A stretch of DNA of 63,415 bases, the filler included, from Stramenopiles sp. TOSAG23-6 (lineage: Eukaryota), in NCBI GenBank assembly GCA_900128565.1. It is 11 parts of 11 records of this genome, joined end to end, with 100 filler letters (N's around TTAATTAATTAA, not from the genome) between each part and the next. Parts side by side here need not be neighbours in the genome. Positions count along the whole stretch, not along the records: positions 1 to 10,900 come from LT636288.1; positions 11,001 to 21,853 come from LT636289.1; positions 21,954 to 32,790 come from LT636290.1; positions 32,891 to 43,697 come from LT636291.1; positions 43,798 to 54,565 come from LT636292.1; positions 54,666 to 56,042 come from LT639147.1; positions 56,143 to 57,518 come from LT639148.1; positions 57,619 to 58,993 come from LT639149.1; 3 more parts are not named here. The stretch is one strand, 5' to 3'. The notes beneath the pieces are model-generated. The model searched no databases, was not told the origin of the DNA, and saw only the letters and a program-made list of their open reading frames with translations. Numbering within the stretch: position 1 is the first letter of the stretch; the number at the start of each line of letters is the position of its first letter. This document shows positions 1-63,415 of this stretch, piece after piece. The position numbers and the translations under genes are program-made.

Positions 1-72
1 AAAAACTAAAATTTCTTAGGTACAAACTTTCGTACGAAAAAAAAAACGAATTTGAAAAAAAATAAAACATAC

Positions 73-384
73 ATGAAAACAACCCTTATAGTTCCCCCCC
101 TTGGATCTATGCAATAGTTTATTATTATTTGTTAGGTATCCATACCATTCATGTATTGTAGGAAATATGTATTTTGTTTTTCGTAAAAAAAAAAAAATTA
201 TTTTACGAAAAAAAAAAAAAAAAAGAAAATTGAAATTAAATGAAAATGTACTCCTCCATTTCCACCTCCAGGTCCAGTCCTTTCGCCCCCATCACAAAAG
301 TTTTCATATGCATAAGTATGAATACGTTTTAACCAATCCATCCATTTTAAATCTTTTGTTTTTGTGTATGCCATAGTTAAGGCA
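73..384 (-). CDS. N-acylglucosamine 2-epimerase (renin-binding protein family), C-terminal exons 384-252 and 150-73, partial
   Basis: Manual translation: ALTMAYTKTKDLKWMDWLKRIHTYAYENFCDGGERTGPGGGNGG|EWYGYLTNNNKLLHRSKGGNYKGCFH, matching the family C-terminal EW(F/Y)GYL...KGGxxKGCFH motif. Not in the ORF track. Confidence 0.8.
151..251 (-). other. Non-canonical GT-AT intron (family member)
   Basis: GGA|GTACATTTT...CAATACAT|GAA; removal joins NGG to EWYGYL in frame. Confidence 0.75.
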
Positions 385-455
385 ATGTAATGTGAAAAAA
401 AAAAAAAAAAAAAAAAAAGTTAGGGAAAAAATTTTTTTTTAAAAAAAAAAAAACC

Positions 456-487
<32 letters not shown>

Positions 488-584
488 ATTTTTTGACATG
501 TTCTTCTAATCACGTTTTTTAGCTACTGTACCACGAACCCTCAATTTTAGGCAACTAATGGAATAATTTCAGACATAATACATA

Positions 585-1865
585 ATGTCAAGAGATGGCC
601 TTGGTGGTTCCACAAAGGCGTCAAGTTATAGTTGGGAACAAGCAGAAGAAGCATCTTGGCGAAAGTTAAACCATGATGATGATGATGAGAACTTACACAT
701 GCCAGAGGCCGAATACCAGCGGGCACAAAAACAGAGACAGCAACCAGCAAAACCTTCGGTGCACCGTGGTATGATAAGGTATGTTGTTTTAGTGATAGAT
801 TTGTCGAAAGCGATGAAAGATAATGACATGAAGCCATCTCGAATTGAGGTAGCTCTTGCAGTAGTACGTGGTTTTTTAAGAGACTTTCTTGACCAAAATC
901 CATTGTGCAATGTGGCTTTAGTTGGAAGTCGTGATGCTCGGGCCGAACAGCTGACAGAGCTCTCCGGTGTAGCAAGCACACATATAGAAGCATCAAGATC
1001 AGGACTGATTCCAAGTGGAGAATTTTCATTACAAAACTCTCTTGAATTAGCTCTGAATCAATTGCGTCCACTTCCTTCTTATGGAAGTAAAGAAATCATT
1101 GTAGTACACGGGGCATTGGCGACAACTGATCCATCTGATATATTCTCAACCATTAAAAGTTTGAAGAAACATCGTGTACGCTGTAGTATAGTAAGCCTAG
1201 CTTCTGAAGTATACGCATTTAAGCAATGTGCTTTAATCACAAATGGGTTATATGGTGTTAGTTTAAACAAAACACATTTTAAAGAACTTTTAGGGGCACA
1301 CAATACACCACCTGCTTTGATTTTGGATTCTGTTGGGAGTGATGTCAATGCTGACACTGGGAAAGCTCATTTTATTCGTATGGGTTTCCCTGAACGTCGG
1401 GTGGATAACTATAAATCGCTTTGTATTTGCCATCAGGAATTTAAGTATGAAGGATATTTCTGTCCTAGATGCAGAACTAAAGTATGTGAATTACCAACAG
1501 AATGTCGATTATGTGGTCTGAATTTAGTATCTTCATCGCATTTAGCAAGATCATATCATCATCTATTTCCTGTAGAACCATTCAATGAAGTGAATTATCC
1601 TTCCTTACAATCCTCCATTGATCCAGACAATGCTAGTTCGAATAAATTAAAAATTAAAATTTCATTGAAAAAGAAAAAAGAAAAAAAGAGTAAAAATGAT
1701 AAAAATAACGACTTTGTACAGAAGCAATGTTTTTCGTGTCTGAAAATTCTTAATCCGAATGAAACGATACAATTACAATGTCCGGATTGTTTACATTTAT
1801 TTTGTTTTGATTGTGATCTATTTGTACATGAGTCACTACACAATTGTCCTGGGTGTATGTGTTAG
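585..1865 (+). CDS. GTF2H2: General transcription factor IIH subunit 2 (p44/Ssl1)
   Basis: YSWE N-terminus, vWA-like Ssl1 domain (RGMIRYVVLVIDLS, GEFSLQNSLE), C4 zinc finger (CPRC...CRLCGLNLVSSSHLARSYHHLFP), C-terminal CFDCDLFVHESLHNCPGC; intronless. Confidence 0.95.
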   Translation: MSRDGLGGSTKASSYSWEQAEEASWRKLNHDDDDENLHMPEAEYQRAQKQRQQPAKPSVHRGMIRYVVLVIDLSKAMKDNDMKPSRIEVALAVVRGFLRDFLDQNPLCNVALVGSRDARAEQLTELSGVASTHIEASRSGLIPSGEFSLQNSLELALNQLRPLPSYGSKEIIVVHGALATTDPSDIFSTIKSLKKHRVRCSIVSLASEVYAFKQCALITNGLYGVSLNKTHFKELLGAHNTPPALILDSVGSDVNADTGKAHFIRMGFPERRVDNYKSLCICHQEFKYEGYFCPRCRTKVCELPTECRLCGLNLVSSSHLARSYHHLFPVEPFNEVNYPSLQSSIDPDNASSNKLKIKISLKKKKEKKSKNDKNNDFVQKQCFSCLKILNPNETIQLQCPDCLHLFCFDCDLFVHESLHNCPGCMC

Positions 1866-1991
1866 TCAAAAATGAAATGCCTAGACTTTTTTGAATAAAT
1901 TTTTAAATGAACATTTGTAATATTTTGGTATTTTACTTTTATAATTGAAAATAATGTATACTATTGACAAAAATAATTCCACTGATTTCTT

Positions 1992-4401: not shown

Positions 4402-7400
4402 TCATACTGCATGACGCAATGCCCGAATTTCCTTTCGATAAATTTCCATTTTTTTTTCTAATTGATCAACTTTTCGTGTCATAAAAGCCATTTGAGTTCG
4501 AGCACCACTAGCCTTTTCTCTAACACGTAATGAATTCTGTACAGCCCAAAGTCTTGTCACTAAAACCATAATTATTGCCCACAAAGAAGCAACACTCAAA
4601 AGTGCGGATTGCAGGAAGTTTGTAAGTACATTTGTAGAAAAAAGATCTTTCAACGGAGTATACGCAGATGTGTCATACATAAATGGTCCACAAGCTAAGG
4701 AACAAACATGTTTTTTGAAAGCAATTTAAAAAAAAAATCGTTAGGTACAAAATTTGGTACATTTTTTTTTTTTAAATGAAAGTAGACAACGTACATATAA
4801 AGTAGAATCTGATATTTTTAAATCATCACTAAGGCCTAACAAATGTTTGAGAGCAACGACAATATTATTTTCAGATGTTAATGATGCATCAGGGTAAGTT
4901 GATTTCAACAATGCGTAACCATCCGCCTCACGATCACATTTTGAATTTGTAATACTTCCACCTGCTCCAACACCACTTCCGCTACATATCCAATAATTAC
5001 GTTCTTCAAAACTTTCATCCCATGACCATGATGATGCTTCATCTTTAAAGACTAAATCAGAAAAATCATCATATCCAGCATGAGTGATAGATACGCCACT
5101 TTTCAGTGATACACTTGATGAAGAACCAGATGTCGGGAGGGTTTCTGTTTTCCATGTTTTATATTGAGTTTCCGTACTTAAAATTGTATCTAGCGTTTGA
5201 CAGTTTTTTGCATTTGTTTCACTCCACAAAAAATTCATAAAAATTATACCAGATATAGCAACGATTACTATGTATAATTTGATGAAAAATACTCCCGCAT
5301 CTTTTGCTGACCATGGTTTGATTGGTTTCCGATAAAAATACTTTAATTGTGTTTCTTCCCAATAAAAGTCCATTATAAAGAATAATTCAGAAAATAATAC
5401 AGCAAAGGGAAAGAATGGAATCACAATGAGTGATAATTGCTGAAAGTATAGTAAAGTGACAATTTTTAAAGATACTAAAAATTCCAACTTTTTGAACTTT
5501 TTTCCTCGGACAACGCAGTAAAACTTCATAACAAATGTGAAGAAAAATGTACTTAATTTTGGTACAAAGAATTCCATAACTACTAAAGAAAACATATCCA
5601 TAGCTGTTTGGTCAAGTCGACACATTTTTGAACTTCCAACAGCAACAGGAGAAAATTCTGATTGTAGAGACCCTCTGGCTCTAGCCAATTCCTGAAGGAT
5701 TACATCTTGTGAAGCTTTGTAGCTTCGTATCAAATACGGATCTGCAAGCATTAATTTTCCTGTAATTGCTACAAACAAATTTACAGTCCTTGCAACATAT
5801 AAACCTACAAGCTTCATTTTAATGGCATCACCAGGATCATCCCATTTCATAAATTCAGTAATTCCAGAAATAAATGGTGGGAGAATTCCATTCATAATGG
5901 AAACAGAAGCTGGAACGATAAAGTCAGCAATGAATATCCACCACGCATTTCCATACTCTGTTTTCAAATATAAATTAATATCAGGATTGTATACATTCAG
6001 TATCACAATTGCAGTAGCACCTACAGCTTGTACAACAAAGTATAATAATGCTCCAACGACTTTTCTCAGGATATATATGTATCTCTCTCGATCAGTTCTT
6101 TGCGCTAATGCTTGCTGCGCTTCTGCTTCAAAAACCATATTGTAAAAACTTTCACCAAAAAAGAATTGTAAATCTTCAATATCATCAACATGCCATCGTG
6201 AATAGTCCCATCCACCTAATGCAATTTTAGCAAACTTAAAACGCGTACTTCCACTTTTATCTTGATGAATAAGATATTTCGTTTTTGTATCTTGTTGTAT
6301 CCAAGTCCTTAGTGAAATTACAACAAAAAATACTAGGCAAAGTAAAATAAATGCTGCATAATCGACTCTTTCACCATCAATACTAGATCCCAAAGGATAA
6401 TCAGGATGACCTGGATTAAATGAAGAGATAAATAACATTTTTGGATAGATAGATGTATTTTGGAAAAATATTTCAAATTTGTTTTTGTTAGGTACAAAAT
6501 TTCGTACGAAAAAAAAAAGTTGGAATTTGAAAAAAAATAAAACATACATCCTACAAATGCAGTCCAGTCTGCTGACGTCCAAGTATACGGAACAGAAATC
6601 GTAACTGTACTAGAGGTATGATCTAATGTACCAGATCCATCTGAAATAGTCCCAAGAGTGATTATATGTCTGATAAGAAATATTAAGGCTACTATAAAAA
6701 GAAATATATATACTTGAATCATCCATCTAGAAAAATCAAAAAATGATGCTACACTTTTTCCATATCGTGCTTCGAGTCTTTGGACGTTTCTCACAAACGG
6801 AGCATTTCTCTCGAAAAATAACCTAATCGTGTTATATAAACGCCAAACAAAATGTTGCATTTTTTCTTCACCATGGTGATGTGTCCCTGTCAATCCTTGT
6901 GATTGTTGTAAAAACTTTGTCGCTTCGGCATATTGTCTGGCGAATTCATCAGAATTTTCTTCTTTTTCGCCCGCTCGACCTTGACTTACAGCTGGAAGTG
7001 CCATTTGCATTGGACCTGCAGGTTTTCCCGAAATCATGGCTTGTTGATATGCTGCAGCGTACATGTATTGTGAAAAAAATGTTTTTAACTTTTAACTTTG
7101 TTAGGTACAAATATTTCACTAAAAACAACACATAAAAAAAATGAAATGCTTATTGAAAAAAGTACTTTCTTGCTGATTCTTCAGCAGCTTCTAAATTCAT
7201 TTTTAAATGACGGACTTTTTTATTCAAACGCTTTCTTTCCTTTCCTAATTTTTCTTCCGTCTCTTTATACTTTTTTCTATATTTTGCTCTCGAATTGGCT
7301 AAACCTGTGACAAGTTGTTTTAACTCAGGATCCATTCCTTCGCCAGCAACTTCCTCCAAAGTCTCTGCTTTTAACGTTTCCTCATCTACTACTACAATAA

Positions 7401-8070: not shown

Positions 8071-8889
8071 ATGAGTTCTACTTCTAAAATTAGACCTCAA
8101 CCAGAAGACGTAAAACCTTTACGTTTTGCTTTGAAGTTTAGCCCACCTACAGTTCTCCTTGAATATTCATTGCAATCTAGTGGAAAAATATATCACTATT
8201 GCGTAAAACTTAATCGAATGGACTTTAATGGAGAAAATTCAGAAAATAAAGTCGTTGCAAAACTTCGTTCAAAATATGATCTTCTCGTAAAACCAGGTTT
8301 AATTTCCAACGAACAGCTTCGACGTCTAATTGAGCGTTTGTTTGCTGGTGTTCAATCATCAAATAGTTCTAATAACAATCAGCATGATGTATGTTTTATA
8401 TGAATTTCTAATTTAATTTTTTTTTCATACGAAATTTAGTACCTAACAAATTTTAGTTTTTTTTTTTNAAANTATTTTTTCACAATACTTGTACATTCAA
8501 AAAGTTCTTCAAACACGTCTTTCAGAGATACTGAAAAAAAACCAACAGTTGAAAATATTGACATGGTTTTGCCACCGACTCCACCTTCAACAAATCAATC
8601 CAAGAACTCCCAGAATTCTCAAAATGTTTTTGAAAAATATGCCGATGAAAGTATCAATTTGAACAAAATGAATAAACAAGAACTTGATTTAGTAAAGGCA
8701 GAAATGTCTGTAGAATTTGAAAAAAAACGTTTGAGACCAGGCGATGAAGGTTATAAATATGACGTTCAAGTGGATTTTGAAGAAGGAACTGAAGAAAATG
8801 ATTGGGATGATGATGAAAGTACAGATATTGAAGAAAACGAGGATGAAGAAGAATTTAATTTTGACTTTGTGAATGGTGATTCAATTTAG
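8071..8889 (+). CDS. CEP19: Centrosomal protein CEP19-like, 2 exons
   Basis: ALKFSPPTVLLEY and NLNKMNKQELDLVKAEMSVEFEKKRLRPGDEGYKYDVQVDF; intron 8389-8490 (GT...TT) restores the frame. Confidence 0.8.
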
Positions 8890-10037: not shown

Positions 10038-10846
10038 ATGGAATGTCAAACCTCAAAAGAATCTGCATTAACTGAGATGAATGTAGCAAACAAAGTTCTT
10101 AAAGAACTCTGTAATGTCTGGAGACGAGACTTGTTCTTAAATGTCATTCCCTTCTGGCTTGATCATTCTCTTGACACCAAGTGCGGTGGTTATTTTACTG
10201 CACTTGATGAAGATGGAAGTGTTTATGATGATAGAAAGTACATGTGGCTGAACGGCCGACAAGTGTACATGATGTCTCGTCTATGTGTGGAATTTCCTAG
10301 TGCTGATGTTTGCAAAATAAATCAGTGGAGAGCGGCTGCGAAGCTTGGTGCTGAGGTATTAGATCGAGCTTTCGATGAGAAAGGCAAGTTGTTTTTTTCT
10401 ACTACCCGAGAAGGCATTCGCTTGCACTTACAGCGCAAGCCTTATTCGGCTGTGTTTTATGTACAAGGTGTATTACAATATTCCATAATGCTTCGAAAGT
10501 CTAAAGAATTTCAAGAAGCTGATATTTATTTCAAAAAAGCAAAAATAATGTTTGGAAAATTACAAACCTGGATTCATGTACGTTTGATTTTTTTCAATTT
10601 CGAATTTATTTTTTTTTCGTACGAAATTTCGTACCTAACATATATCACAAAAAACTATATACTCCTTTATTACATAAACCAAGTCTTTGTGGACGTCCAG
10701 AACCACCTCCAAATTTTAAGCCTCCAGAGTGTTCTGTGTTAAGTGATATAATGTGCGTGGCATCATTGGCGCTTGATTTTCTCGATGCACTTGATGAAGA
10801 TTCCTCTGAACGATTTCAATATTTACAAATTATTCGTCAATGTTCT
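10038..10846 (+). CDS. N-acylglucosamine 2-epimerase, N-terminal part (runs into an intron and the contig end)
   Basis: VIPFWLDHSLDTKCGGYFTALDEDGSVYDDRKYMWLNGRQVY; intron 10578-10675 joins WIH|KPSLCGRP. Confidence 0.85.
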
Positions 10847-10900
10847 GTACGTTTTCATTTCAATTTCGAATTTATTTTTTTTTCGTACGAAATTTTGTAC

Positions 10901-11000: not shown

Positions 11001-11058
11001 ACAAAATTTCGTACGAAAAATAAATTCGATTTTTTTGTAAAAAAAAAATAAAACACAC

Positions 11059-13681
11059 ATCATGTATACCATCAACAATATTATCAATTGCTTTATACCC
11101 TTGAATCAATTCGGTAATTGCAGAAGTCCATATTTCATTATATATTCCTCTATCTTTCTGGCCATAATTCTTTCTTTTCCTTGACTTTCCCTTATTCTGA
11201 TGATTTTTCATTGACATTTGCGACACAAATTTATTCAAAACATAACCACAAGAAACGTTTTCTTTAATAGTATTTGTTTTTGTTAAGGGCGTACATTTCA
11301 AATTATGAATAGGATGCATCCATGTATTTTGGAAAAATATTTCAAAAAACAATTCGTTAGGTACAAAATGTTTTGAAAAAAATAAATTAGAAATTGAAAA
11401 GAAATAAAACATACATAAACCTAATAACCGACCAGAAATTGTTTCCGATTTTAACAAAATAGAATATTTTGAGTTTTCTACAATTTTATCACAAAACTCT
11501 CCAAGGTTTGGAACATGGCAGAGATTACTTATAGATAAGATACGCATACAACGTTCTTGGAGACGTATTAAAGCAGACAAAATTGAGTCATTGCAATATA
11601 TACCACCTCGATGATGTCTAAATGATTGATGGAGATCTTTTGCTGTTGTCCCAATTTGTTGTACGATCTTGGGCGATTCAAAAGGAACTCTTTTCGATAA
11701 AATTTCTAAAAGTTTGAGCCGCAGGTTCAAAGTTGTTTGATTTTGAATATTTTTATTCTTTTCACTGATTTCAGGACAGGTAATTGAACTTGGTCTGAAT
11801 GATGATGTAAGTGTACCTCGAAGCCAATGACTATAATCAAAACGAATATGTGAACTATGTATTCGTCGACTACTATCTCTATTAATACTTTTTTTATGTG
11901 TACGTTTTTTTCTACTTTTAACAGGAATCTCATTCGAATCATAAATATAGTTGGCTGCTGTAGATGCAAATTGAAGAACACACCCAAGAAAGCTAGAATC
12001 CGTTGTATCAATATACATCTGTGTAATTTGTTGTAGAATACTATCAATAGAAATATTGGCACGTGTCATTATATATAAAATATCATCAATAGAAATTTTC
12101 CTGATATCTAATTGAAGTTTTGTATCGGATTTGACTAGGTTATATTTCAACAGATCAATTAATGCATGTGACAGTACATCAGTAATACTTGCACGAGGAA
12201 GAATACGAATCATTTCTTCAACTGAGCGACAAATTTCTAATGAATTCACAGCATTACGTTTCACGCGAATATTTACATCCGTACCAAATTTTCTACATGA
12301 ATGTTTTGAATTGTCCCGGCTAGAAGACATTGAAGATTTTGCATTGTCCCGGCTAGAAGACATCGAAGATGATTTTGCATTGTCCCGGCTAGAAGACATC
12401 GAAGATGATAGAACAAATTTCATAACTGACAATACACACTCTAACAGTACGAGAAAATTATAATCCTTGGTATTATTTTCAGGTTTCCAATCTGGAGGAA
12501 AACGTATTGTAAAAAAATATTAAAAAAANTGTTTGTTAGGTACAAAATTTCGTTCGAAAAAATAAATACATTCGAAATTGAAATGAAAATGTACAAGAGT
12601 CAGAAATGCTCGAGATACCGCTAGAGGATTTAAATATGCAGCGTTTTCTATTATTTGCTTCAACATTTTAGTTGAGTCGTTTGGCATATAAAATTTCTCA
12701 TACGAATTATTCGGAAGTGTTTTTAAAATAGTTGTGAAAGTAGAGTATTTCATACGAAAAAATGATTCATTGGCATTCAAAATGCTTTTGATAGCACAAC
12801 AAATATTTTTCGGCGTTGTACCATTTACATACAAATTATTATTGATAATTGTTTGAATATAAGCCATCAACAATTGATATGAATTTGATACAAGAGTACT
12901 CAATGAAGTCTTAAAGATTTCATTATATAACAGAGAATTCTTCAATATTTTAAAATTAAATGGAGCGTCATTTTTTCTATTTTTTCTATAAATGCTATTT
13001 GATGAACATTCCATCGTTTTACCGATATTTTTTCTATAAATGCTATTTGATGAACATTCCATCGTTTTACCCATATTATNATTGCCAGTAAACGAAGATT
13101 TTGCGACTTCAGAAACCAAATAATTACATACTATTTGCATTTTTTTCTCAAAATATACATCTTGATTTAGCTTTGTTGTTGACGAATTGATTGTAGCAGT
13201 ACATAAAAATCTGAGATAATTTGCCTTTGCAATACACGAAATCTGAATGTCTTTCNCAAAACATTGAACAATATAAAGAAGAGAAAGATGCGTAGGAGAT
13301 GCTGAACTATTATATCTTGTACGTATAGAAGTGACAGGCCTTGAATGTATCATTTCACAAATGAAGTCATTCATGTTTTTTTAAAAAATATTTCAAAAAA
13401 AAATTTTAAAAAATTTGTTAGGTACAAAATTTCGTATGAAAAAATAATTTCGAAATTCAAATGAAAACGTACATATTTACTTTTTTATCATTTTGATTGT
13501 TTTGATTGTTTTGATTATAATCATACCATTTTTGGAATATCGCGGTTGCAGATTTCACCTCATCTATAGGAATTTTACTTATATCATTGTTTAGAATATT
13601 TTCTACGGAAACTTCGTCGGGGTCTACTTCAAATACTGCTTCCTCAAGATTCTCTGATGTTGAAAATTCAAAATGCAAAGC
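11059..13681 (-). CDS. Uncharacterized multi-exon protein, partial
   Basis: ORFs 13457-13678, 12520-13374 and 10945-12432 join in frame after removing 13373-13472, 12502-12594 and 11322-11414. Confidence 0.6.
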
Positions 13682-13776
13682 AAATTTTTTCTGAAAAATA
13701 TTTCAAATTTTTTTTCGTTAGGTACAAATTNTCGTACGAAAAATAAATTCGAAATTGAAAAAAAAATAAAACGTAC

Positions 13777-15409
13777 ATTATTAGGAGGTATGTGAAATTC
13801 AGTTTCAGTTGTTAATTCACCTTCTACTGTAACTGTTGAAGCACCATCACTACCATTTGCGGTAGATTTTGCTGGTGTGGGAGGAAAAAGATGATCATAA
13901 AATTGTCCACCTTCATGTATTTAAGAAAATATTTCAAAAAAAAATCGTTAGGTACAAAATTGCGTACGAAAAAAAAATCGAATTTCAAAAAAAATAAAAA
14001 CATACATCGTAGTTGAGTATAAATACTGTTTTTGAATACACATGTGCATTATCTGGATCACCCAAAACAGCTAAAATTCTGGCACTTAAATCTTCACCAT
14101 CTTGAGGGTGATTTGAAGCATGTTCACTAAGAGCTGTTGGACCAACAATCCAACTTACTTGTGGTAATTGATCAGAGGCTACATCATTTGCAAATTGATC
14201 TACAACATTGTTACTTTTATACATACCCTTATCCCACAAAGGATCTCCAGGTTTTACATTTTTAAATTTTCCAAACCATGCAAAAGCATTATCATCAAAA
14301 TTATCTTTTTCTTGGTAGACTTTCCATGAAATTCCATTTTTTTCTAGTGTCTCCGCCATTGTTTCCCATCGCATTTCGTTTGAATATTGTTCAGAATCAT
14401 CCAAAAGACATAAATTTGAATCTTTTGCTGAGAGTCCATTAGAACCTGTAAAAAGGTGTTGCCTGTTGGGATTTGTTGCAGTAAAAGTAGATTGAAAGTA
14501 TTGATCACTGAGAGTAAATTCATCAGCAAGTGAATAATAAAATGGCAAATCTGTTCTATTAAAATAAGCCATACCATAACCAGGCTTCCTTGCAGTATTC
14601 CATGCATCAGCCCAACCATTATTCCATATGTTAATATTAGATTCATAGGCCATCTCTGGTGCTGGCATACAAGTTGCTGCTGTGTCTCTGAAGTGTAAAG
14701 GAAAAGGAAGCATATATTGTGCATCACATTTTACACCAGGCTTCCAACAAAACGTATCAACACCAGAGCAATCTCCAGAAGCATCATCACAACATACCAT
14801 ATCGTTACCATCACTCCTATTACACACTTGATCCTTCACGGAACAGTGCCAACCAGCACAAGTGTTTACACGGGATGGTTCCGGGGCGAACAAGTCATCT
14901 GGTAGTTGGGGAATTTTGACACGTAGGTCAGAGGGGCAAATTGGAGCTTCAGTCAAAGAATCGCGTACATTCAAGTGCTCAATAGTCGTAGTATATAAAT
15001 CATTCATGAATTCTGTACATGTTTCATTCCTTGCAACGTGTATGGGAGGAGACGCGCTTTTCAGTACGTCTAAAAACTCAGAACAAGTTGAACCATCAAC
15101 AATTTCACGAATATCAGAAGCACCATCTTTCCACTTCATACTACATGCGCTACATCCACATCGCGAGGAAGAAGTTGGTGGTGAAGGCTGGGGTACAGGC
15201 TGATAGAACGGAGATAATCCTGAAGGTAGTATGGGAGCAGTTCTATCGTTAAATCCTCGCACCCCTTTGAGTGACCCATAGTAGTGGTCAAACGAGCGGT
15301 TCTCTTGCATAAAAATCACAATGTGTTCAACATCACGGATTGTACCAGTAGGCTTACTTTCTGCAACCAAGATGGATATGAAATAAATCAATGTACTTAC
15401 TCTCATCAT
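13777..15409 (-). CDS. Secreted phosphocholine-specific phospholipase C (phosphoesterase family, PlcH/PlcN type), C-terminus missing
   Basis: Signal peptide, DVEHIVIFMQENRSFDHYYG, TNPNR, LPQVSWIV, NYD|EGGQFYDH across intron 13915-14005. Confidence 0.9.
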
Positions 15410-19609: not shown

Positions 19610-20843
19610 CTAGAACAATACACTCTTTATCCAACGCCGAAAAGTTCCAATATAAATACATATTTCTGTATTATAGTCTGAATTACTATTCTCATTCGGT
19701 TTATAATATACACCCCAATATATTTTAACTTTCTTTTTAGCTGTAAGTATTTTGGAAAAATATTTCAAAAAAAAAAACTTAAATTTGTTAGGTACAAAAT
19801 TTACTATAAAAAAAAAATAAATTCGAAATTGAAAAAAAAAACATACAAGCACTTTTTTACGACATTTTTCTATAATTGAATTTTCACTGTCTTTAACAAT
19901 ATTTACATTCCAACCATGAGCTTTAATAAATTCAAGCAAAGAAGGATTATTCTTTTCTAAAGGTGGAATGTATTTTGGAAAAATATTTCAAAAAATAATC
20001 GTTAGGTACAAAATTTCGTACAAAAAAAAATTCGATTTTTTTGTAAAAAAAAAATAAAAAATACATATAAATCCGTTTGAATTTCCGAGTCCACCAATTT
20101 TGACGTAATACAACCAAATTTGATGATTTCGTTTGAGTGTCACTTTCATCTTTTTTGGTATTAGAGTTAGGGTTAGATGTAAAAAATAATTTTGGTAAAG
20201 GCAGTAATAAGGCTTCTGGGACTTTTTTATTCCAAGTTGTGTCATACCTACTAAAATCATATGTAAACAATCTAGCTCGTATGAAATTTGGTGATATCTT
20301 TATATTTCGCTTTGTATCAAGTAAATCAAGAACATCTGAAGTGCCGTGGTGAATTTTATGTATCAAATGGAGAAGCCAGGGAGCACTTTGATGTATTTTG
20401 GAAAAATATTTTCAAAAAAAAATCGTTAGGTACACAATTTCGTAAGAAACAAAATTCGATTTTTTTGTTAAAAAAAAAAATAAAACATACATAATTGCTC
20501 AATGCGGCAAACCACATTTGCCAATCAAGACGAGGTTGATAAGGTGCAACCCACGGCGGAGATTGTGTGGGGTCACCAGGTTTGTACCTGAAATGTATTT
20601 CTTCCCATGTGTTCCCATCGTCACTCCATTCAAGAATAATTTCAGGTCTTTCTACATTTGACACGTGTCGACCATTTTCATCAAATGTATCCGGACCTAC
20701 TCCAGTCATTGAACGAAATAAACCATAAGAAGATGAAATTGATGCAGTATTGAGCTGTTGTGTTTTTAATTTTACAATATACGGTATAAATTGAAGTGTT
20801 TTTGGTGACAAGATTTGAATAAGAATAACAGATGAGCCAATAC
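19610..20843 (-). CDS. Lipase maturation factor family protein, C-terminal part
   Basis: [54 protein letters not shown]; three family introns. Confidence 0.88.
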
Positions 20844-20941
20844 ATGTATTTTGGAAAAATATTTCAAAAAAAACATCGTTAGGTACAAAATTTCGTACGA
20901 AAAAAAAATTCGATTTTTTTGTAAAAAAAAATAAAACATAC

Positions 20942-21535: not shown

Positions 21536-21568
<33 letters not shown>

Positions 21569-31353: not shown

Positions 31354-31388
<35 letters not shown>

Positions 31389-43130: not shown

Positions 43131-43237
43131 ATGTATTTTGGAAAAATATTTGAAAAAAATCTTTAAAAATTTGTTAGGTACNAAANTTACTATNAAAAAA
43201 AAANTTCGATTTGTTTGTAAAAAAAAATAAAACATAC

Positions 43238-56142: not shown

Positions 56143-57432
56143 CTGTTAAATGTTGTTCATGCTCAATGTTATGTCCAATTGTTAAAGCTGATTCCATTGC
56201 AATACTTCTGCGTTGATTAAGATACTCCAAGGATTCTTTTTGATTTTTATCTGTCATATCTGCAACTAAAACACCGACTGAATCCTTATACATTTGAAAA
56301 TCAGGATGCTCCGTCGAAATTCGTGTTTTCTCCATTGAAATTAACATTGTAACCAAATCTTTTGTTTTGCCTAATGATTTCTGAATAAATGCTTTTGTTA
56401 AATTAATAATTTCGTCTCGTAATGAATCAAAAACAACCATACCAGACACTGAAATAGACTCCGCAATATTATTAAGTTCCGTATAACAATCATCTACACA
56501 TGTATTTTGGAAAAATATTTCAAAAAAATCTAAGTTATTCACAAGTGACATGTCATTAGGAAAACTGACTAAAAATATTTCATTAAGACGTGCTCCACCT
56601 ATCACATCATCTCCAGAAAATGTATTGTGAATTTATATAAAAAAGAAAACAAATATCAGGTACAATTGTTTTTGAAAAAAATTGAAAAAAAATTGAAAAA
56701 AAATTAAAAAAAAATTGAAATTGAAATTGAAAAAAAATTGAAATTCAAGAGTAAGAAAGACACAAAACAATTAGGTACAAGATTTTGTACTAAAAAAAAA
56801 CATACCATCTTCTCCAGTCCCGTATATAATTTCTTGTAACTTTTTGTGATAGACGTATTGTGAAAAAATATTTTTTTTTTGATTTTTTTTGTTAGGTACA
56901 AAATTTCGTATGAAAAAAAAAATAGACAAAAAAATGAAAAAAACATACACACATGCCGTATCGATGACATGTCTCTGTTTCTCATCTTGACTTTCTAGCT
57001 TTGGTATAGAATCCAAGTCCTGTTGTTTCTGGAAGATGAATTTTTTCACTTTTTGTTCAATTTCTGGTAAACATGAAAAAATATGCTTTTTTAATACAGA
57101 ACTCAATTTTGTTACTAAAACTTCTGTACCCCCTCCAGGTTTTGGCAAATTAGAATATATTGTGAAACATTATTTCAAAACAACATTCTTTAGATTTGGA
57201 TTATTTTTTTTGAAAGAAAAATAAATTTTAAAAAAAATAGTTAGGTACAAAATTTTGTATGAAACAAAATAAATCTGAAATTCATGATTAGATTCGAGAG
57301 TAAAGCATACATATTGAGGATGATTTGCAAAATATGCTTTTTCTGATTCCCATTGCTTATTGATAGCTTTATCATTTTTGATATCTTTTTGACTTCGATT
57401 TACCACAGGAATCCAACCCAATTTCAACGGGA
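56143..57432 (-). CDS. Dynamin-related GTPase fragment (end of GTPase domain and middle domain)
   Basis: PLKLGWIPVVNRSQKDI, YFANHPQY|SNL, LKKHIFSCLPEI, IGGARL, ISTEHPDF; several family introns. Confidence 0.8.
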
Positions 57433-58369: not shown

Positions 58370-59151
58370 AGTTAATATTTGTTATCGCTATTATTATTCG
58401 TTCCTAAAATAAAGAAACATCTAAAAGAGTGATATACAGATCTGCTACATAATATTTACAAGAACACATGTATTTCCTTTGACAAATTTCCACCGTTGAA
58501 AAGATGACATTGTGAAGAAAAACACGTAAACTGACCGCTAACCACTATTAGGCTATATATATGATCTGTGTAGTATACCGGCAAGGACTCTATCCTGAAT
58601 AAAATAATACATGATGTTTGTTTTTAATAGAATTTTCACTTCGCGGTAGTCAATTCAATCACTATTTTTTATGTTTATCTGCGTCGTCACCCTGTATCAA
58701 CTCTAGTGAAAAAAAATACGAATTCATACATTAGTTGTGGNNNNNNNNNNNNNNNNNNNNNNNNNNNNNNNNNNNCCACTTGACTGCAACTGGTAATAAA
58801 ATATTATTCTTAACTACCTTCACCTGATGTTTCAATCTACCTGCTTACATGATCACCATTTTCTTGGCAGAATACGGCAAATCATAAATTACTTGCTGAT
58901 AACATGAAAAGTTTTAAACATACAGTTTTCAGAATATGGACAAAATATAAATCGCCTGAAAATCGTTTGTACTGGCTAATTGTCTTCGATTTTNNNNNNN
59001 NNNNNNNNNNNNNNNNNNNNNNNNNNNNNNNNNNNNNTTAATTAATTAANNNNNNNNNNNNNNNNNNNNNNNNNNNNNNNNNNNNNNNNNNNNTTAGGTA
59101 CAAAATTTCGTACGAAAAAATATTTCGAATTTGAAAAAAAATAAAACACGC

Positions 59152-61114: not shown

Positions 61115-61890
61115 ACAATTGGAGGAAAAAGTTGTTGATATCCACGGAGATGAGGTATTATCACAGATTCCAAAGGCGGAGCATCTTGATAGCACAGACG
61201 CCCATCTGAAGCGTGCAAAAAAGCACCTCAAAGCAGGTCGTCTTATACATGCTGGTGTTGATTTTGCACGTGCTGAAGATCACGATGCTGTTTTAGGACT
61301 GGGTAGAGCTTCAATTGAATGGAAAAAGATTAATGATTTACTGGCAAATAAGGAATATGTCTTGGCTAATGAAGCTATTGAAAAAGTAGAAAAAAATGAC
61401 GTCAATAATGCTAAAAAGCACTATTCTATTGCATTACGTGCGGATCCTGACGCATCGGTTAAGTCAGAATTTAAGATAGTTCAAACACTAGCAAAACTAA
61501 TTAAAAACACAAACAAGTGGTTAGATAAATCGTATAATCATCGAGCATTGAAATTAATCATTGAAATTGAAGAAATATTGAAAAATCTAAATATTAAAAC
61601 TCATCGAATTAACGCAAAGGTTTCATTGTTAGCATGTCGTGGAGAATCTGCTGTTAAACATCATGAAATAGCAATTACTCGTTGCGAAAATGCTTTGCGT
61701 TATTTCGAAGAAAAAATTCCTGGACTTCATGTTGATCCGTTCCAAATCATTTTAGCTAGAAAAACTCTAGCTAAAGCTCATATGAATGACTTTAATTTTG
61801 ATGAAGCTGTTGTTGAGTTCAGGAAAGCATTAACACTGTTAGAAGAAAATAATGCTAGTAATGAAGAAAAGAATGAAATGAGGCATAGTT
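61115..61890 (+). CDS. TPR protein, DNAJC3/P58IPK-like fragment
   Basis: TPR-like helices (AKKHYSIALRADPD, FDEAVVEFRKAL); first 280 nt duplicated at 60569-60848. Confidence 0.5.
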
Positions 61891-62096
61891 GTATGTTTTA
61901 TATGAATTTCTAATTTAATTTTTTTTTCATACGAAATTTCGTANNNNNNNNNNNNNNNNNNNNNNNNNNNNNNNNNNNNNNNNNNNNTTAATTAATTAAN
62001 NNNNNNNNNNNNNNNNNNNNNNNNNNNNNNNNNNNNNNNNNNNTTGTACCTAACAAAAATTAATTTTTTTTTTTGAAATATTTTTCCAAAATACAT

Positions 62097-62246
62097 GTGT
62101 GTCTCAGACGATATGAAAAGGAATTATGGTCACCTTTGGCGTATAAAACTTTGATTCGCCGATTAGGATTAACCCTGACACCACCACAAGAACGTGTTTT
62201 TGCTGCTGTATATAATTGGAGAGATGAAATTGCTCGTCGTGAAGAT
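62097..62246 (+). CDS. EXOSC10: Exosome component 10 (Rrp6) exon at the start of the HRDC domain
   Basis: VCLRRYEK...QERVFAAVYNWRDEIARRED. Confidence 0.7.
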
Positions 62247-62352
62247 GTATGTTTTATTTTTTTTTCAACAAAAAAATCGAATTTATTTTTCATACGAAAT
62301 TTTGTACCTAACGATTTTTTTTTTTTTTTTTAAATATTTTTCCATAAAACAT

Positions 62353-63324
62353 GTTTTGGGGACTCTTAGAGATCAAGTTTGTTATCCTGAATCTACAGAA
62401 ATTGCTAGGCAAATGTCTGAAGATGAATTAAGATCTTTACTTCGTGAAGTCGATTTAGAATATATTATGAACCAAAGAACACCAAAACAAAAATCAATAA
62501 TGTATAAAAATGATGTTGATGATGAGATTGTGGATTGGGAAATGAGATTATCTATGGGAGAACAACAACGATTAGCATATGTTTTCATTATTTTTTGTTT
62601 AAATGTTTTTTTGTAGTTAATTTTGTACCTAACAAAAAAATATAAAATTTGAAAAAACATATTTTTTCACTATATACGATGGCACGTCTTTTTTATCATC
62701 ATAGTAAAAAACAAAAAACGACATTGGATGGTACCCCTAACCCTATAATACATGCGAAATTTGCAATTTTAGATGAATGTACGTCGGGGGTGAGTGCGGC
62801 AATGGAAAGACGTTTATATAATATATGTGCTAAGCGCAATATTACATGTATAACAATATCACACCGACCAGCGTTGGCCAAATTTCATGATGTTGTACTT
62901 AATATTTTAAAAGATGGAAAAGGCGGATGGACCTGGACAAAAACGAATTCGTTGAGACAAAATAATGATAACCCTAATCCTAAAGACATCAAAAGCTCTT
63001 CAATTATTGTCGAACAACCTCATTCTCAAGGAAAACATTCTCAAGGGGATGATGATACGGATAGTGCAGGTAATGCTTTAGCTGAAAGAAAATGTTTGCA
63101 AGAAAGAAGTCAAGTATACATGGATGCATGGGAAGAACGACAAAGTTCTAATGATAAAAAAAACATAGAAAATCAGAGAGGGTTTTTATACGGAAAATCT
63201 CTAACTCATGTAGGCATTACAAAGAGAATCTATGATGTATTATCAAAGTTTTGTCCGAATGGCTTTGATCTGCATGACAGTGAAGTGAGGAGAGTTTTAT
63301 TACTGATTGGTCTTGTTGTGTCAA
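62353..63324 (+). CDS. Peroxisomal ABC transporter subfamily D fragment
   Basis: VLGTLRDQVCYP, LSMGEQQRLA|MARLFYH, FAILDECTS, CITISHRPAL. Confidence 0.9.
62577..62677 (+). other. AT-AC member of the intron family
   Basis: TTA GC|ATATGTTTT...TTTTGTACCTAAC...CACTATATAC|G ATG GCA restores QQRLAMARLFYH. Confidence 0.75.
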
Positions 63325-63415
63325 GTATGTTTTAGTTTTTTTTCAATTTTGAATTTATTTTTCGTACGAAATTTTGTACCTAACGATTTTTTTTTGAAAT
63401 ATTTTCCAAAATACA

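What the first reader, a model, noticed from the sequence alone, without database searches (positions are those of the whole stretch)
1..63415. Abundant intron family that lacks the 3' AG: GT...AT introns dominate this window
Seen: about 57 copies of a ~90-130 nt element interrupt CDSs on nearly every contig, always sense to the gene. Each has GTA(T/C)GTTTT at the 5' end, usually a branch-like TACCTAAC about 33-45 nt from the end, and AAAATACAT at the 3' end. Removal restores conserved motifs: MAPK HR|DLKP (18817-18910), PLC NYD|EGG (13915-14005), LMF NY|QSAPW (20391-20490), PAN3 WSD|GSVLALRR (27158-27256), SH3 RED|ELAI. No AG is available at these junctions. GT...AT is the only register shared by these copies: exon A precedes GT at 251 and 7165, exon C or A follows at 6453, 20391 and 10675, and a -2 shift would turn HRD into HHD. 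Established: U2 spliceosomal introns end almost invariably in AG, read by U2AF35 and paired with the first G. Mass non-canonical introns are known in a few lineages (euglenids, Fritillaria, Amoebophrya) with other end rules. Inference: this organism has a modified, AG-independent splicing system serving a recently expanded intron family.
Basis: partly seen in the sequence, partly recalled or inferred. Interest (0 to 1): 0.95.

Follow-up and report, generated by a model that had tools for sequence, protein, structure and literature searches.

The report
Transposon-like introns lacking 3' AG
An uncultured marine stramenopile carries a high-copy, transposon-like family of ~100-base introns that are cut precisely out of its messenger RNA although they end in AT (sometimes TT or GT) instead of the near-universal AG.

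Summary
A profile of the element finds 56 loci in 63 kb. All 42 introns I could resolve lie sense to the local reading frame. Removing 36 curated copies in the GT...NT register joins the longest flanking frames in 33 of 36 (chance 12) and yields ORFs up to 1559 codons. Forty-one of 42 have no AG at the junction. A poly(A) metatranscriptome contig joins the PLC exons exactly across the 91-nt copy, bypassing an AG 4 nt downstream, while an independent seawater DNA metagenome keeps the elements.

New points: the last two intron bases repeat the last two exon bases in 27 of 36 copies (AT/AT 23, TT/TT 3, GT/GT 1; permutation p=0.0003). This indicates a 2-bp target-site duplication around a GTAT...ATAC element, that is, an introner. 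AT...AC is therefore an equivalent register in 21 of 36 copies. MAPK (HR|D) excludes AT...AC at that copy. One relative uses GT...AG, and one copy starting with A fits AT...AC.

An altered spliceosome is inferred, not shown, because no snRNA or splicing-factor genes were available. I rate this a new variant of a known kind. The host is a stramenopile.

The parts
13915..14005 (-). Element/intron in the PLC (phosphoesterase) gene, GT..AT, flank AT. Removal is seen in RNA.
   Evidence: poly(A) RNA contig X11 record 1 lies on 14229..14005 and then directly on 13913..13777, with 0 other letters. Frame test.
18817..18910 (-). Diverged element/intron in the MAPK gene between HR and DLKP. Flank is GT, end is AT.
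   Evidence: ERK2 residues 146|147. (registers TG..CA, GT..AT and TA..TG only). DNA contigs X3 records 12 and 13 carry the element.
20391..20490 (-). Element/intron in the LMF gene (NY|QSAPW), GT..AT, flank AT.
   Evidence: LMF1_C profile 9-68 then 71-124.. X3 records 14 and 15 carry exon plus element ends.
27158..27256 (+). Element/intron in PAN3, GT..AT, flank AT.
   Evidence: After removal there is a 714-codon ORF.
27766..27859 (+). Diverged relative in PAN3 with a canonical GT..AG end (..CAAAATAAAG|G).
   Evidence: weak hit, E 0.13.. Junction KSM|DAV aligns to PDB 4bwp residues 278|279.
62577..62677 (+). Copy in an ABC-D transporter gene that starts with A (ATATGTTTTC). Only a 101-nt removal fits. 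AT..AC or the neighbouring TA..CG or CA..TA fit; family register 0 is out of frame.
167..251 (-). Copy, GT..AT, flank GA. The frame test failed; flanks are short, next to the contig end.
4708..4794 (-). Copy, GT..AT, flank AT.
6453..6547 (-). Copy, GT..AT, flank AT.
7063..7165 (-). Copy, GT..AT, flank AA.
8389..8490 (+). Copy, GT..TT, flank AT. An alternative in-frame ..ACAT end lies 6 nt further on.
10578..10675 (+). Copy, GT..AT, flank AT.
11322..11414 (-). Copy, GT..AT, flank AT.
12502..12594 (-). Copy, GT..GT, flank TT.
13373..13472 (-). Copy, GT..AT, flank AT.
13689..13776 (-). Copy whose 5' border (AAT|GTACG) is respected by RNA. Its 3' side does not lead to the PLC's next exon, so the contig is probably mis-joined inside the repeat.
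   Evidence: X11 record 1 and X6 record 16 stop at 13777 with unlaid letters beyond. (those 12 letters are absent from the window).
19745..19846 (-). Copy, GT..TT, flank TT. An AG 4 nt downstream also keeps a frame open (38 codons), so this one is ambiguous.
19968..20064 (-). Copy, GT..AT (GTATTT), flank AT.
20844..20941 (-). Copy, GT..AT, flank AT. The frame test failed.
33858..33956 (-). Copy, GC..AT, flank AT.
34287..34393 (-). Copy, GT..AT, flank AT.
34502..34603 (-). Copy, GT..AT, flank AT.
35005..35152 (-). Copy, GT..AT, flank AC.
35719..35834 (-). Copy, GT..AT, flank AT.
35937..36027 (-). Copy, GT..AT, flank GT.
36144..36254 (-). Copy, AT..AT (first base A, and T instead of C at -3), flank AT.
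36678..36785 (-). Copy, GT..TT, flank TT.
36960..37068 (-). Copy, GT..AT, flank AT.
37633..37738 (-). Copy, GT..AT, flank AT. Best profile hit.
37877..37984 (-). Copy, GT..AT, flank AT.
38702..38828 (-). Copy, GT..AT, flank CT.
39122..39222 (-). Copy, GT..AT, flank AT.
39350..39460 (-). Copy with a duplicated core, GT..AT, flank GA.
39717..39840 (-). Copy, GA..AT in register 0 (T2 changed to A). The AT..AC register is also open.
39920..40025 (-). Copy, GT..AT (GTCCGT), flank GC.
40079..40205 (-). Copy, GT..AT, flank AT.
42124..42294 (-). Copy with two cores in an SH3-domain gene (RED|ELAI), GT..AT, flank AT, 171 nt.
   Evidence: read by eye.
42851..42954 (-). Copy, GT..TT, flank TT. Frame-consistent. 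The AG at -5 is out of frame.
43131..43237 (-). Copy, GT..AT, flank AT.
56620..56805 (-). Long copy in a dynamin gene, GT..AT, flank TG. Register 0 is the only register.
56853..56948 (-). Copy in the dynamin gene, GT..GT, flank GT. It is followed by a 47-nt exon.
57155..57310 (-). Intron in the dynamin gene, GT..AT, flank AT.
62247..62352 (+). Copy, GT..AT, flank AT.
7..72 (-). 5' part of a copy, cut by the contig start.
10847..10900 (+). 5' part of a copy, cut by the contig end.
11001..11058 (-). 5' part of a copy (GTGTGT), cut by the contig start.
21468..21532 (-). 3' part of a copy (..CACAATACAT|). The 5' end is unresolved.
21799..21853 (-). 3' part of a copy, cut by the contig end.
43633..43697 (-). 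3' part of a copy, cut by the contig end.
57431..57518 (-). 3' part of an intron ending ..CTTTACAT| before dynamin PLKLGWIPVVNRSQ. Its branch-like box is TAACTAAC.
   Evidence: read by eye.
59094..59148 (-). 5' part of a copy (GCGTGT), cut by the contig start.
61891..61943 (+). 5' part of a copy, cut by the contig end.
62044..62096 (+). 3' part of a copy, cut by the contig start.
63325..63415 (+). Copy cut 1 nt before its end by the window end; flank AA.

Best explanation
The elements are an introner family: short, non-autonomous, MITE-like DNA insertions that act as spliceosomal introns.

The mobile unit is GTAT(G)TTTT...CMAAATAC, which has 4-8 bp inverted termini. It inserts into a dinucleotide, usually AT, and duplicates it.

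The unit itself supplies a strong U2-type 5' splice site (GTAYGT), a TACTAAC-like branch box (GTACCTAAC) and a U-rich tract.

The 3' cut falls two bases beyond the element's terminal C, that is, after the duplicated dinucleotide. Splicing therefore removes the element plus one copy of the duplication and restores the original mRNA exactly. As a result the introns read GT...AT, or less often GT...TT or GT...GT, and carry no AG.

Shown: the family, its strand bias, frame restoration, the flank/end repeat, precise removal in RNA at one junction, and retention in DNA.

Inferred: transposition as the way the family spreads; the spliceosome as the machine that removes it; GT...NT rather than AT...AC as the chemical register for most copies; and some relaxation or change of second-step 3' site recognition in this stramenopile.
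For: Family and copy number:
- 56 loci in 63 kb.
- About 10 of 22 contig ends fall inside a copy.
- In an independent metagenome, summed word depth is thousands in bins holding elements and 3-7 in unique exons. The tool warns that this figure is not a copy number.

Intron behaviour:
- 36 of 36 curated copies are sense to the ORF.
- 33 of 36 join the longest flanking frames.
- After removal, ORFs of 1559, 1024, 956, 805 and 714 codons appear.
- The junctions HR|DLKP, LMF1_C 68|71 and PAN3 278|279 are supported by alignment.

Splice-like signals:
- +1 G in 35 of 36, +2 T in 34 of 36, +3 A in 36 of 36, +5 G in 31 of 36, +6 T in 36 of 36.
- TACCTAA is found in 33 of 36 copies, with its A 33-52 nt from the 3' end in 32 of those 33.

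No AG:
- 0 of 36 have AG at the junction.
- 2 of 36 have an AG in the last 25 intron bases, and both are out of frame.

RNA:
- Poly(A) contig X11 record 1 (374 nt, 0 other letters) bridges 14005|13913, with 225 and 137 letters on the two sides. It includes the GAAG that holds the nearest downstream AG.
- X6 records 16 and 17, from another study, stop at the same borders with unlaid letters beyond them.

DNA: X3 records 12-15 carry exon plus element at the MAPK and LMF loci, at the same depth as the exons.

Target duplication:
- The exon's last 2 nt equal the intron's last 2 nt in 27 of 36 copies.
- This includes 4 of the 6 copies that do not end in AT.
- Permutation p is 0.0003 overall and 0.00065 for the non-AT ends.

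Register:
- MAPK allows only TG..CA, GT..AT or TA..TG.
- The GT..AG relative has its AG at the position homologous to the family's AT.
Against: - Direct RNA proof covers one junction (PLC), and there AT..AC, TG..CA, GT..AT and TA..TG all give the same mRNA.
- No RNA contig across MAPK was shown or found.
- The RNA contig could in principle come from a strain whose gene lacks the two introns.
- 9 of 36 copies have unequal flank and end, so the duplication is inferred statistically and not from an empty site.
- The inverted termini are very short, and no transposase partner or empty site was found.
- One copy (62577-62677) does not fit the family register.
- 3 of 36 failed the frame test as run.
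- At least one contig appears mis-joined inside a repeat, so some flank pairs may not belong together.
- The spliceosome's role rests on motif resemblance only.
Confidence: 0.7

Rival explanations
1. This rival keeps the same introner but uses the other register. The duplicated AT upstream is the 5' end and the element's own terminal AC is the 3' end, so most copies are AT...AC introns. That terminal pair is already known to be compatible with splicing. The minority with unequal flanks would then use GT...AT or be poorly spliced.
For: - The AT..AC register is open in 21 of 36 copies, and NT..AC in 25 of 36.
- C at -3 is found in 33 of 36 and A at -4 in 36 of 36.
- The ABC-D copy that starts with A fits AT..AC and not the family's register 0.
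- This reading matches the published rule that an introner brings one splice site and the duplication supplies the other. I saw that rule as passages in the review PMC11282704.
Against: - MAPK would become HHD instead of HRD.
- 9 of 36 copies lack this register.
- TT..AC (3 copies) and GT..AC (1 copy) would need yet other 5' ends.
- ATGTATGT is neither a U12-type 5' site (RTATCCTT) nor a good U1/U6 match, whereas GTAYGT two bases further in is a textbook site.
- The intron-side copy of the dinucleotide is better kept (T in 36 of 36) than the exon-side copy (T in 32 of 36).
Confidence: 0.12
2. The elements are removed from RNA by a route other than the spliceosome, as proposed for euglenid nonconventional introns. 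In that case the ends would be brought together by pairing and the excised product would be a circle.
For: - The ends are non-canonical.
- There are short inverted termini and a TSD-like repeat at the borders, as described for euglenids and hemistasiid diplonemids. I saw this as section 6 of PMC11282704 and as the abstract and passages of PMC12621601.
- MFE folds pair GUAU with AUAC and leave the last 2 nt free in 5 of 6 copies folded.
Against: - The terminal helix is only 3-4 bp.
- The folds are no more stable than shuffles: z is -0.94, 0.07, 0.09, -0.27, -2.02 and -0.23.
- The copies have a strong GTAYGT site, a TACTAAC-like box and a U-rich tract, which nonconventional introns are said to lack.
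- A GT..AG relative shares the same architecture.
Confidence: 0.08
3. The elements are not spliced. They are cut out of DNA in an expressed nucleus, as with IESs, or the RNA contigs come from strains or alleles that never had the insertions.
For: - Exact removal of element plus one copy of a 2-bp repeat is also what precise DNA excision would leave.
- Metatranscriptome contigs cannot be tied to one cell.
- The RNA libraries may contain DNA (warning).
Against: - All 36 copies are sense to their genes, which DNA excision does not require.
- DNA contigs of an independent metagenome carry the elements at the depth of the neighbouring exons: X3 records 12 and 13 at depth 6 and 5.97.
- No ~90-100-nt skip was listed for the DNA run, although 479 joints were not shown.
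- The RNA contig is identical to the window over 362 nt and lacks two neighbouring elements at once.
- An RNA-library contig (X8 record 31) runs 22 nt into an element, as an unspliced precursor would.
Confidence: 0.05
4. The pattern is an artefact: a repeat collapsed into coding sequence by a poor single-cell assembly, or the genes are pseudogenes.
For: - Many single Ns are present.
- Contigs end in the repeat.
- At least one join is probably wrong.
Against: - Independent metagenome contigs reproduce the exon-element borders.
- Frames are restored in 33 of 36.
- Catalytic motifs are intact: HRDLKPSN, DFG and TEY in MAPK.
- RNA of the spliced form exists.
Confidence: 0.02

Closest known systems
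Introner elements of Micromonas pusilla and the stramenopile Aureococcus anophagefferens (MITE-like DNA transposons that create introns)
   Same: - Many near-identical short copies sit in unrelated genes, all sense to the gene.
- They have inverted termini and a short target duplication.
- The element brings one splice site and the duplication lies at the other border, so the mRNA is restored exactly. The rule is taken from review PMC11282704, seen as passages and section 6.
   Different: - Those families give canonical GT-AG introns. Here the duplicated dinucleotide is AT (or TT, GT), so the 3' end is not AG.
- The duplication is 2 bp here, against 3 nt stated for Micromonas.
- No autonomous partner is known here.
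Non-canonical, MITE-derived introns of the tunicate Fritillaria borealis
   Same: - Abundant, species-specific introns of transposon origin with TIRs and TSDs.
- They are spliced although their ends are not GT-AG, which implies a tolerant U2 spliceosome (review text).
   Different: - There the prevalent ends are AG-AC and AG-AT, with an exonic TAC before the intron, and the 5' end is non-canonical.
- Here the 5' end is a textbook GTAYGT and only the 3' end departs.
- The host here is a protist, not an animal.
Introners with non-canonical ends in Amoebophrya and Polarella/Symbiodinium (dinoflagellates)
   Same: Marine protists in which invasive repeated introns with TSDs and TIRs go with unusual borders (listing of PMC7789003).
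   Different: - In Amoebophrya the TSDs are 3-5 nt and variable, the borders are highly diverse, and U1 is reported missing.
- In Polarella the borders are mainly GC-AG.
- Here there is one dominant family with uniform GT...AT ends and a 5' site that looks U1-compatible.
U12-type (minor) introns with non-canonical termini, e.g. in Physarum polycephalum
   Same: - GT-AT is a recorded minor-spliceosome boundary: 17% of 1,014 non-canonical U12-type introns in Physarum.
- A transposon origin with a TA duplication was proposed there (preprint 10.1101/2020.10.12.336362, passages seen).
   Different: - The 5' site here is GTAYGTTTT, not RTATCCTT.
- The branch-like box lies 33-52 nt from the 3' end, not 10-12 nt.
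Nonconventional introns of euglenids and hemistasiid diplonemids
   Same: Non-GT-AG borders, end complementarity, TSD-like repeats, and a suspected MITE origin.
   Different: - Those have extensive end pairing, no polypyrimidine tract and variable borders.
- Here pairing is 4 bp, the folding is not significant, and canonical 5' and branch signals are present.
- The host is a stramenopile: the best named hits for CCT-beta are stramenopiles.

Membership tests
Introner / MITE-derived intron | Many similar copies interrupting unrelated genes | tested here: met
   56 loci in genes for MAPK, PLC, LMF, PAN3, dynamin, an ABC-D transporter, an SH3 protein, a TMC-domain protein and others.
Introner / MITE-derived intron | Removed from RNA so that the host frame is restored | tested here: met
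   Frames are restored in 33 of 36. There is one direct RNA bridge, and borders are shared by RNA contigs of two studies.
Introner / MITE-derived intron | Target-site duplication at the borders | tested here: met
   The exon's last 2 nt equal the intron's last 2 nt in 27 of 36 copies, including TT/TT in 3 and GT/GT in 1. Permutation p=0.0003. No empty site was seen.
Introner / MITE-derived intron | Terminal inverted repeats | tested here: inconclusive
   GTAT(G)TTTT against the reverse complement of AAAATAC gives 4 perfect bp, or about 7 bp with one bulge. This was read from the consensus. It is short and AT-rich.
Introner / MITE-derived intron | Autonomous element or transposase with the same termini | not testable with these tools
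   No genome is held. None is in the window. Scans of metagenome and viral contigs with the 20-nt core gave 0 hits.
U2-type GT-AG spliceosomal intron | 5' GTRAGT/GTAYGT and a branch box upstream of the 3' end | tested here: met
   Position counts.
U2-type GT-AG spliceosomal intron | 3' terminal AG | tested here: not met
   0 of 36 curated copies and 1 of 42 resolved introns (27766-27859).
U12-type intron | 5' RTATCCTT | tested here: not met
   +5 is G in 31 of 36 and +6 is T in 36 of 36.
U12-type intron | Branch site about 10-15 nt from the 3' end | tested here: not met
   33-52 nt in 32 of 33 copies.
U12-type intron | U11/U12/U4atac/U6atac present in the genome | not testable with these tools
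   No genome is held. Rfam finds nothing in the window.
Euglenid-type nonconventional intron | Stable pairing of the intron ends; no canonical 5' or branch signals | tested here: not met
   z-scores range from -2.02 to +0.09 in the 6 copies folded. The terminal helix is 4 bp in four copies, 3 bp in one, and one copy folds otherwise. Canonical signals are present.
Ciliate-type internal eliminated sequence (DNA excision) | Element absent from the bulk DNA of the expressed nucleus; no strand preference | tested here: not met
   Metagenome DNA contigs carry the elements at exon depth. 36 of 36 copies are sense. The listing of DNA joints was truncated, so absence of an excised form is not proven.

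The most novel reading that the evidence does not exclude
A stramenopile with an otherwise textbook U2-type 5' site and branch box ligates exons at a 3' site that is not AG. The site is defined by position, two bases past a conserved CMAAATAC motif and 33-45 nt after the branch. On this reading the first and last intron bases form G...U where other eukaryotes have G...G. The single copy that starts with A and fits AT...AC would then be the isosteric A...C partner of a G-U wobble. This would point to a re-tuned second catalytic step (Prp8, Prp22, Slu7 or Prp18). That re-tuning would have let a transposon with an AT target duplication spread through genes as harmless introns.
Probability: 0.4. 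Interest if true: 0.88.

Novelty: new variant of a known kind. Interest (0 to 1): 0.72.

Why it matters
The 3' AG is among the most invariant signals in eukaryotic gene expression. It is read in the second catalytic step through contacts with the first intron base and the branch adenosine.

Known mass departures from GT-AG mostly alter the 5' end or both ends, and they occur in lineages whose splicing signals are odd in other respects. Examples are Fritillaria, Amoebophrya, euglenids and diplonemids.

Here the 5' site and branch box look ordinary and only the last base pair of the intron departs. The departure seems to come straight from the target duplication of a mobile element. This gives a clean natural experiment on three questions:
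- How the 3' site is chosen.
- How far spliceosome fidelity can relax.
- How such relaxation opens genes to introner invasion.

There is also a practical consequence. Gene finders and introner surveys that accept only AG or AC acceptors will mis-annotate this lineage's genes. Curation of this kind is described in PMC12130899 (passages seen). The lineage is detectable in seawater metagenomes and metatranscriptomes of several studies.

Tried and rejected
- The whole genome is not held. I could therefore not search for snRNAs, U2AF35, Prp8 and similar genes, nor take a genome-wide intron census.

Searches with no result:
- Rfam on the window gave 0 matches.
- ARAGORN reported one tRNA-Thr, inside the giant open frame. 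It is probably spurious.
- The search for related loci with the MAPK upstream exon in metagenome contigs matched 121 pattern stretches, none of them a relative.
- The 20-nt element core gave 0 hits in metagenome contigs and 0 in viral contigs. So I have no empty sites, no sister copies and no autonomous partner.
- A protein search for fragments spanning the MAPK junction (55-175 aa) returned no candidate. The MAPK exon's best relatives are only 54-62% identical.
- The PAN3 upstream exon had no PDB match, so that junction rests on frame alone.

Limits of the read-laying output:
- The joints table was swamped by repeat-induced joints (479 not shown), so junctions other than PLC could not be read from it.
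- Parts of the contig without RNA cover are not evidence either way.

Ideas I considered and dropped:
- A diplonemid host, which I considered because the literature describes non-canonical introns in marine diplonemids. I rejected it because the named CCT-beta hits at 70-71% are mostly stramenopiles, alongside a few plants and other eukaryotes at 56-68%.
- A U12-type identity, rejected on the 5' motif and the branch distance.
- A TA (Tc1/mariner-like) duplication, rejected because no TA...TA parsing restores the frames.
- The lone 3' end at 56500-56531 as a 70-nt intron. It is out of frame and remains unresolved.

Literature searches (one search was a syntax error):
- None found a paper describing a GT-AT introner family in a stramenopile.
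- Supplements were not consulted and might hold such a case.

Full report
**What the window is.** The 63,415 bases are 11 contigs joined by artificial N44-TTAATTAATTAA-N44 spacers. Most contigs have 26-39% G+C. No whole genome is held. A 10-kb stretch is held almost completely by two small DNA runs of a coded 'organism A'. It is held in part by seawater metagenomes, and by 13 seawater metatranscriptome runs from several studies. A CCT-beta gene in the window (28874-30472, minus strand) has unnamed environmental relatives at 89%, 83% and 77% identity. Its named hits at 70-71% are mostly stramenopiles (Triparma, Phytophthora, Tribonema, Thraustotheca, Aplanochytrium, diatoms, brown algae), alongside a few plants and other eukaryotes at 56-68%. 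The host is therefore an uncultured marine stramenopile. It is not a diplonemid or an animal.

**The observation.** The two end motifs are strongly over-represented.
- GTAYGTTTT occurs 34 times against 2.6 expected.
- AAAATACAT occurs 22 times against 3.06 expected.
- In neither case does any of 100 shuffles reach the observed count.

A profile built from 15 clear copies gives 63 hits, which merge into 56 loci. Of these, 51 have E<=0.01. About 10 of the 22 contig ends lie inside a copy, as expected if the assembler breaks at a high-copy repeat.

I fixed both ends of 36 copies by homology to the family. All 36 lie on the coding strand of the surrounding ORF.

**Frame test.** I took the longest open frame ending at the 5' border and, independently, the longest open frame starting at the 3' border.
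- Among the 23 copies whose length is not a multiple of three, 21 connect.
- One of the three misses (56948) is explained by a 47-nt exon lying between two introns.
- The other two (251 and 20941) remain unexplained.
- 22 of 36 copies carry in-frame stops.
- After removal, ORFs of 1559, 1024, 956, 805 and 714 codons appear.

**Further introns.** Six more introns were resolved, giving 42 in all.
- Three further GT...AT introns came.
- One came from reading (SH3, RED|ELAI).
- One is a GT...AG relative.
- One is an AT...AC-type copy.

**Conserved junctions.**
- MAPK: the upstream exon ends ...ASVTHR, aligned to ERK2 residue 146. The downstream exon starts DLKPSNILLN at residue 147.
- LMF: the two exons match Pfam LMF1_C positions 9-68 and 71-124.
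- PLC: the Phosphoesterase match runs to the last residue of the exon.
- PAN3, second intron: the two sides align to PDB 4bwp residues 278 and 279.
- PAN3, first intron: only the downstream side has a PDB match.

**No AG.** None of the 36 copies has AG at the junction. Only two have any AG in their last 25 bases, and both are out of frame. Only five have an in-frame AG within 30 nt downstream.

**RNA and DNA evidence.** I laid contigs of three metatranscriptome runs from three studies, plus one independent seawater DNA run, on contig 11001-21853.

A 374-nt contig of a poly(A) library (X11 record 1, depth 5, no differing letters) lies on 14229..14005 and continues directly at 13913..13777. The 91-nt PLC copy is therefore absent and the message reads ...NYD|EGG.... 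The contig contains the GAAG that holds the nearest downstream AG, so that AG is not used.

The contig's last 12 letters do not continue into the next copy (13689-13776). They are found nowhere in the window. I read them as a codon string for PIGL, which fits my recollection of the continuation of this enzyme family. That family motif is recalled, not tested. So a second copy is also removed, and the window's contig is probably mis-joined inside that repeat.

Contigs of a second study (X6 records 16 and 17) stop at the same two borders, with unlaid letters beyond them.

The DNA run carries exon plus element at MAPK (records 12 and 13) and at LMF (records 14 and 15), at the same depth as neighbouring exons.

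One contig of a non-poly(A) RNA library (X8 record 31) runs 22 nt into a copy, as an unspliced precursor or DNA carry-over would.

Only a fraction of the laid records and joints was listed, so other junctions could not be read.

**What the ends really are.** The 5' end is a textbook U2-type site: G 35/36, T 34/36, A 36/36, Y 36/36, G 31/36, T 36/36. A box GTACCTAAC is found in 33 of 36 copies. It is one C longer than the yeast TACTAAC, which I cite from memory. Its A lies 33-52 nt from the 3' end in 32 of those 33 copies (median 41).

The 3' end reads ...TTTYCMAAATAC, followed by two more bases. In register 0 these two bases are AT in 30 copies, TT in 4 and GT in 2.

They equal the last two bases of the upstream exon in 27 of 36 copies: AT/AT 23, TT/TT 3, GT/GT 1. 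Four of the six non-AT ends match their flank. Shuffling the flanks gives p=0.0003 overall and 0.00065 for the non-AT ends. The third base does not share this repeat; I judged that by eye.

The simplest reading is a 2-bp target-site duplication around a mobile unit GTAT(G)TTTT...AAAATAC with short inverted termini. That makes the family an introner of the MITE kind. It brings its own 5' site and branch box, and its 3' border falls at the end of the duplicated dinucleotide. This is the arrangement described for Micromonas and Aureococcus introners in review PMC11282704 (passages and section 6). The difference here is that the duplication is not AG.

**Which register is cut.** Because of the duplication, AT...AC, TG...CA and GT...AT give the same mRNA in 21 of 36 copies, including the RNA-proven PLC copy.

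Four points favour GT...NT:
- MAPK, whose flank is CGT, admits only TG..CA, GT..AT or TA..TG, because AT..AC would give HHD.
- GTAYGT is an excellent 5' site, whereas ATGTATGT matches no known class.
- The intron-side copy of the dinucleotide is better kept than the exon-side copy (T in 36/36 against 32/36).
- The diverged PAN3 relative has its AG at the position homologous to the family's AT..CAAAATAAAG| against ..CAAAATACAT|.

At MAPK the R codon is constrained, so a pure duplication would have left GT at the intron end. The end is in fact AT. This suggests AT is itself preferred and is not merely a relic.

One observation points the other way. The ABC-D copy begins with A (ATATGTTTTC). The family register is out of frame there. 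Only a 101-nt removal joins ...LSMGEQQRLA to MARLFYHH...AKFAILDECTS. That removal is AT..AC, or the neighbouring TA..CG or CA..TA. The identity of the residues just after the junction rests partly on my recollection of the ABC-D signature.

That is one case, but it is what the classical first-base/last-base rule (A with C) would predict. It hints that terminal-base pairing still matters.

**How it probably works.** The most likely picture (0.7) has these steps:
- The element inserts into coding DNA, mostly at AT followed by G. Phase 0 holds in about 21 of 36 copies.
- The transcript is recognised through GTAYGT and the branch box.
- Exon ligation occurs two bases past the terminal C, 33-45 nt after the branch, with T as the last intron base in every family copy.
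- AG is accepted too, in one relative.

The host's second-step recognition or proofreading is presumably relaxed or re-tuned. That is inference; no splicing gene or snRNA could be examined.

**Rivals.**
- Pairing of the intron ends is minimal. It is a 4-bp GUAU/AUAC helix in four of six folded copies, 3 bp in one, and another fold in the sixth. Folds are not more stable than shuffles, with z from -2.02 to +0.09. A euglenid-like structure-driven excision is therefore unlikely.
- U12-type identity fails on both the 5' motif and the branch distance. GT-AT is, however, a recorded minor-spliceosome boundary in Physarum (preprint 10.1101/2020.10.12.336362; passages).
- DNA-level excision is disfavoured by the absolute strand bias and by the element-bearing metagenome DNA.

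**Novelty.** Transposon-derived introns and mass non-canonical introns are known in Fritillaria (AG-AC, AG-AT), Amoebophrya, Polarella, euglenids and hemistasiid diplonemids. A family with canonical 5' and branch signals and a uniform non-AG 3' end created by its own target duplication, in a stramenopile, was not found in six full-text searches. Supplements were not available. Large introner surveys state that they accept AG and AC acceptors and discard families with unfamiliar sites that lack RNA support (PMC12130899; passage). They depend on annotated genomes, so such a family would be missed. I rate the finding a new variant of a known kind.

**Limits.**
- There is one directly bridged junction.
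- Metatranscriptome contigs cannot be tied to one strain.
- The assembly is of single-cell quality and has at least one probable mis-join.
- No empty site, no transposase, no snRNAs and no lariat data are available.

Noticed in passing
window 43798-54565: The whole contig is one open frame of 3588 codons on the minus strand, running off both ends. G+C is 0.44-0.48 against 0.26-0.39 elsewhere, the GC skew is strong, and the opposite strand shows ~90-codon periodic ORFs. It holds no element copy. It is either a giant repetitive (Gly/Ser/Thr-rich) protein or DNA of another organism in the assembly. The tRNA-Thr that ARAGORN calls at 46726-46813 lies inside this frame and is probably spurious.
   Followed up: no
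window 13689-13776 and downstream: RNA contigs continue after exon 13777 with letters that occur nowhere in the window. The window instead continues into a different ORF (13702..11002). The contig is probably mis-joined inside the repeat, so flank pairs in this assembly need care.
   Followed up: partly
window, contig ends (e.g. 7-72, 10847-10900, 11001-11058, 21799-21853, 43633-43697, 59094-59148, 61891-61943, 62044-62096, 63325-63415): About 10 of 22 contig ends fall inside an element copy, so the repeat limits the assembly. Several single Ns lie inside copies.
   Followed up: partly
element core, e.g. window 20878-20905 (-): The most conserved part of the element is ..TTTCGTACGAAATTTTGTACCTAAC. 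It contains a perfect 12-nt palindrome, TTTCGTACGAAA, next to the branch-like box. The 20-nt core is exact in 12 places and survives even in diverged copies. Its role is unknown; it could be a protein-binding site, a hairpin, or extended U2 pairing.
   Followed up: no
window 56500-56531 (-): A lone 3' end of the element (..GAAATATTTTTCCAAAATACAT) lies in frame inside the dynamin ORF. By recollection of dynamin sequences, roughly 100 residues seem to be missing there. This may be an exonised fragment or an assembly collapse between two introns.
   Followed up: partly
window 42124-42294, 39350-39460, 42851-42954 (-): Some copies carry two branch-like cores in tandem, an internal duplication, which makes for longer introns.
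   Followed up: no
window 3714-3742 (+), 16373-16402 (+), 32710-32740 (+): These are core-only hits. The first lies in frame in ORF 3021-4184 and may be a decayed or exonised copy. The second lies between the convergent ends of two genes. The third is followed by long A/T runs at a contig end. None was resolved.
   Followed up: no
window 36144-36254 (-) and 39717-39840 (-): Two copies have a damaged GT. One reads ATATGT..ATATAT, with G1 changed to A together with C(-3) changed to T, which keeps end complementarity. The other reads GAATGT. They could be spliced in the AT.. register, be poorly spliced, or be sequencing errors.
   Followed up: no
window 60216 and 60420 (+): A direct repeat of about 60 nt (both copies start GAAAGTGCCTGGGTATGTTCG...) lies in a contig with long N runs. 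It is unrelated to the element family.
   Followed up: no
window genes: Intron load is very uneven. CCT-beta (28874-30472), TFIIH Ssl1 (579-1862), an RCC1-repeat gene (24019-25788) and an Mss4/PDZ gene (31000-32046) have none. One coiled-coil-like gene on 33282-43666 has about 25.
   Followed up: partly
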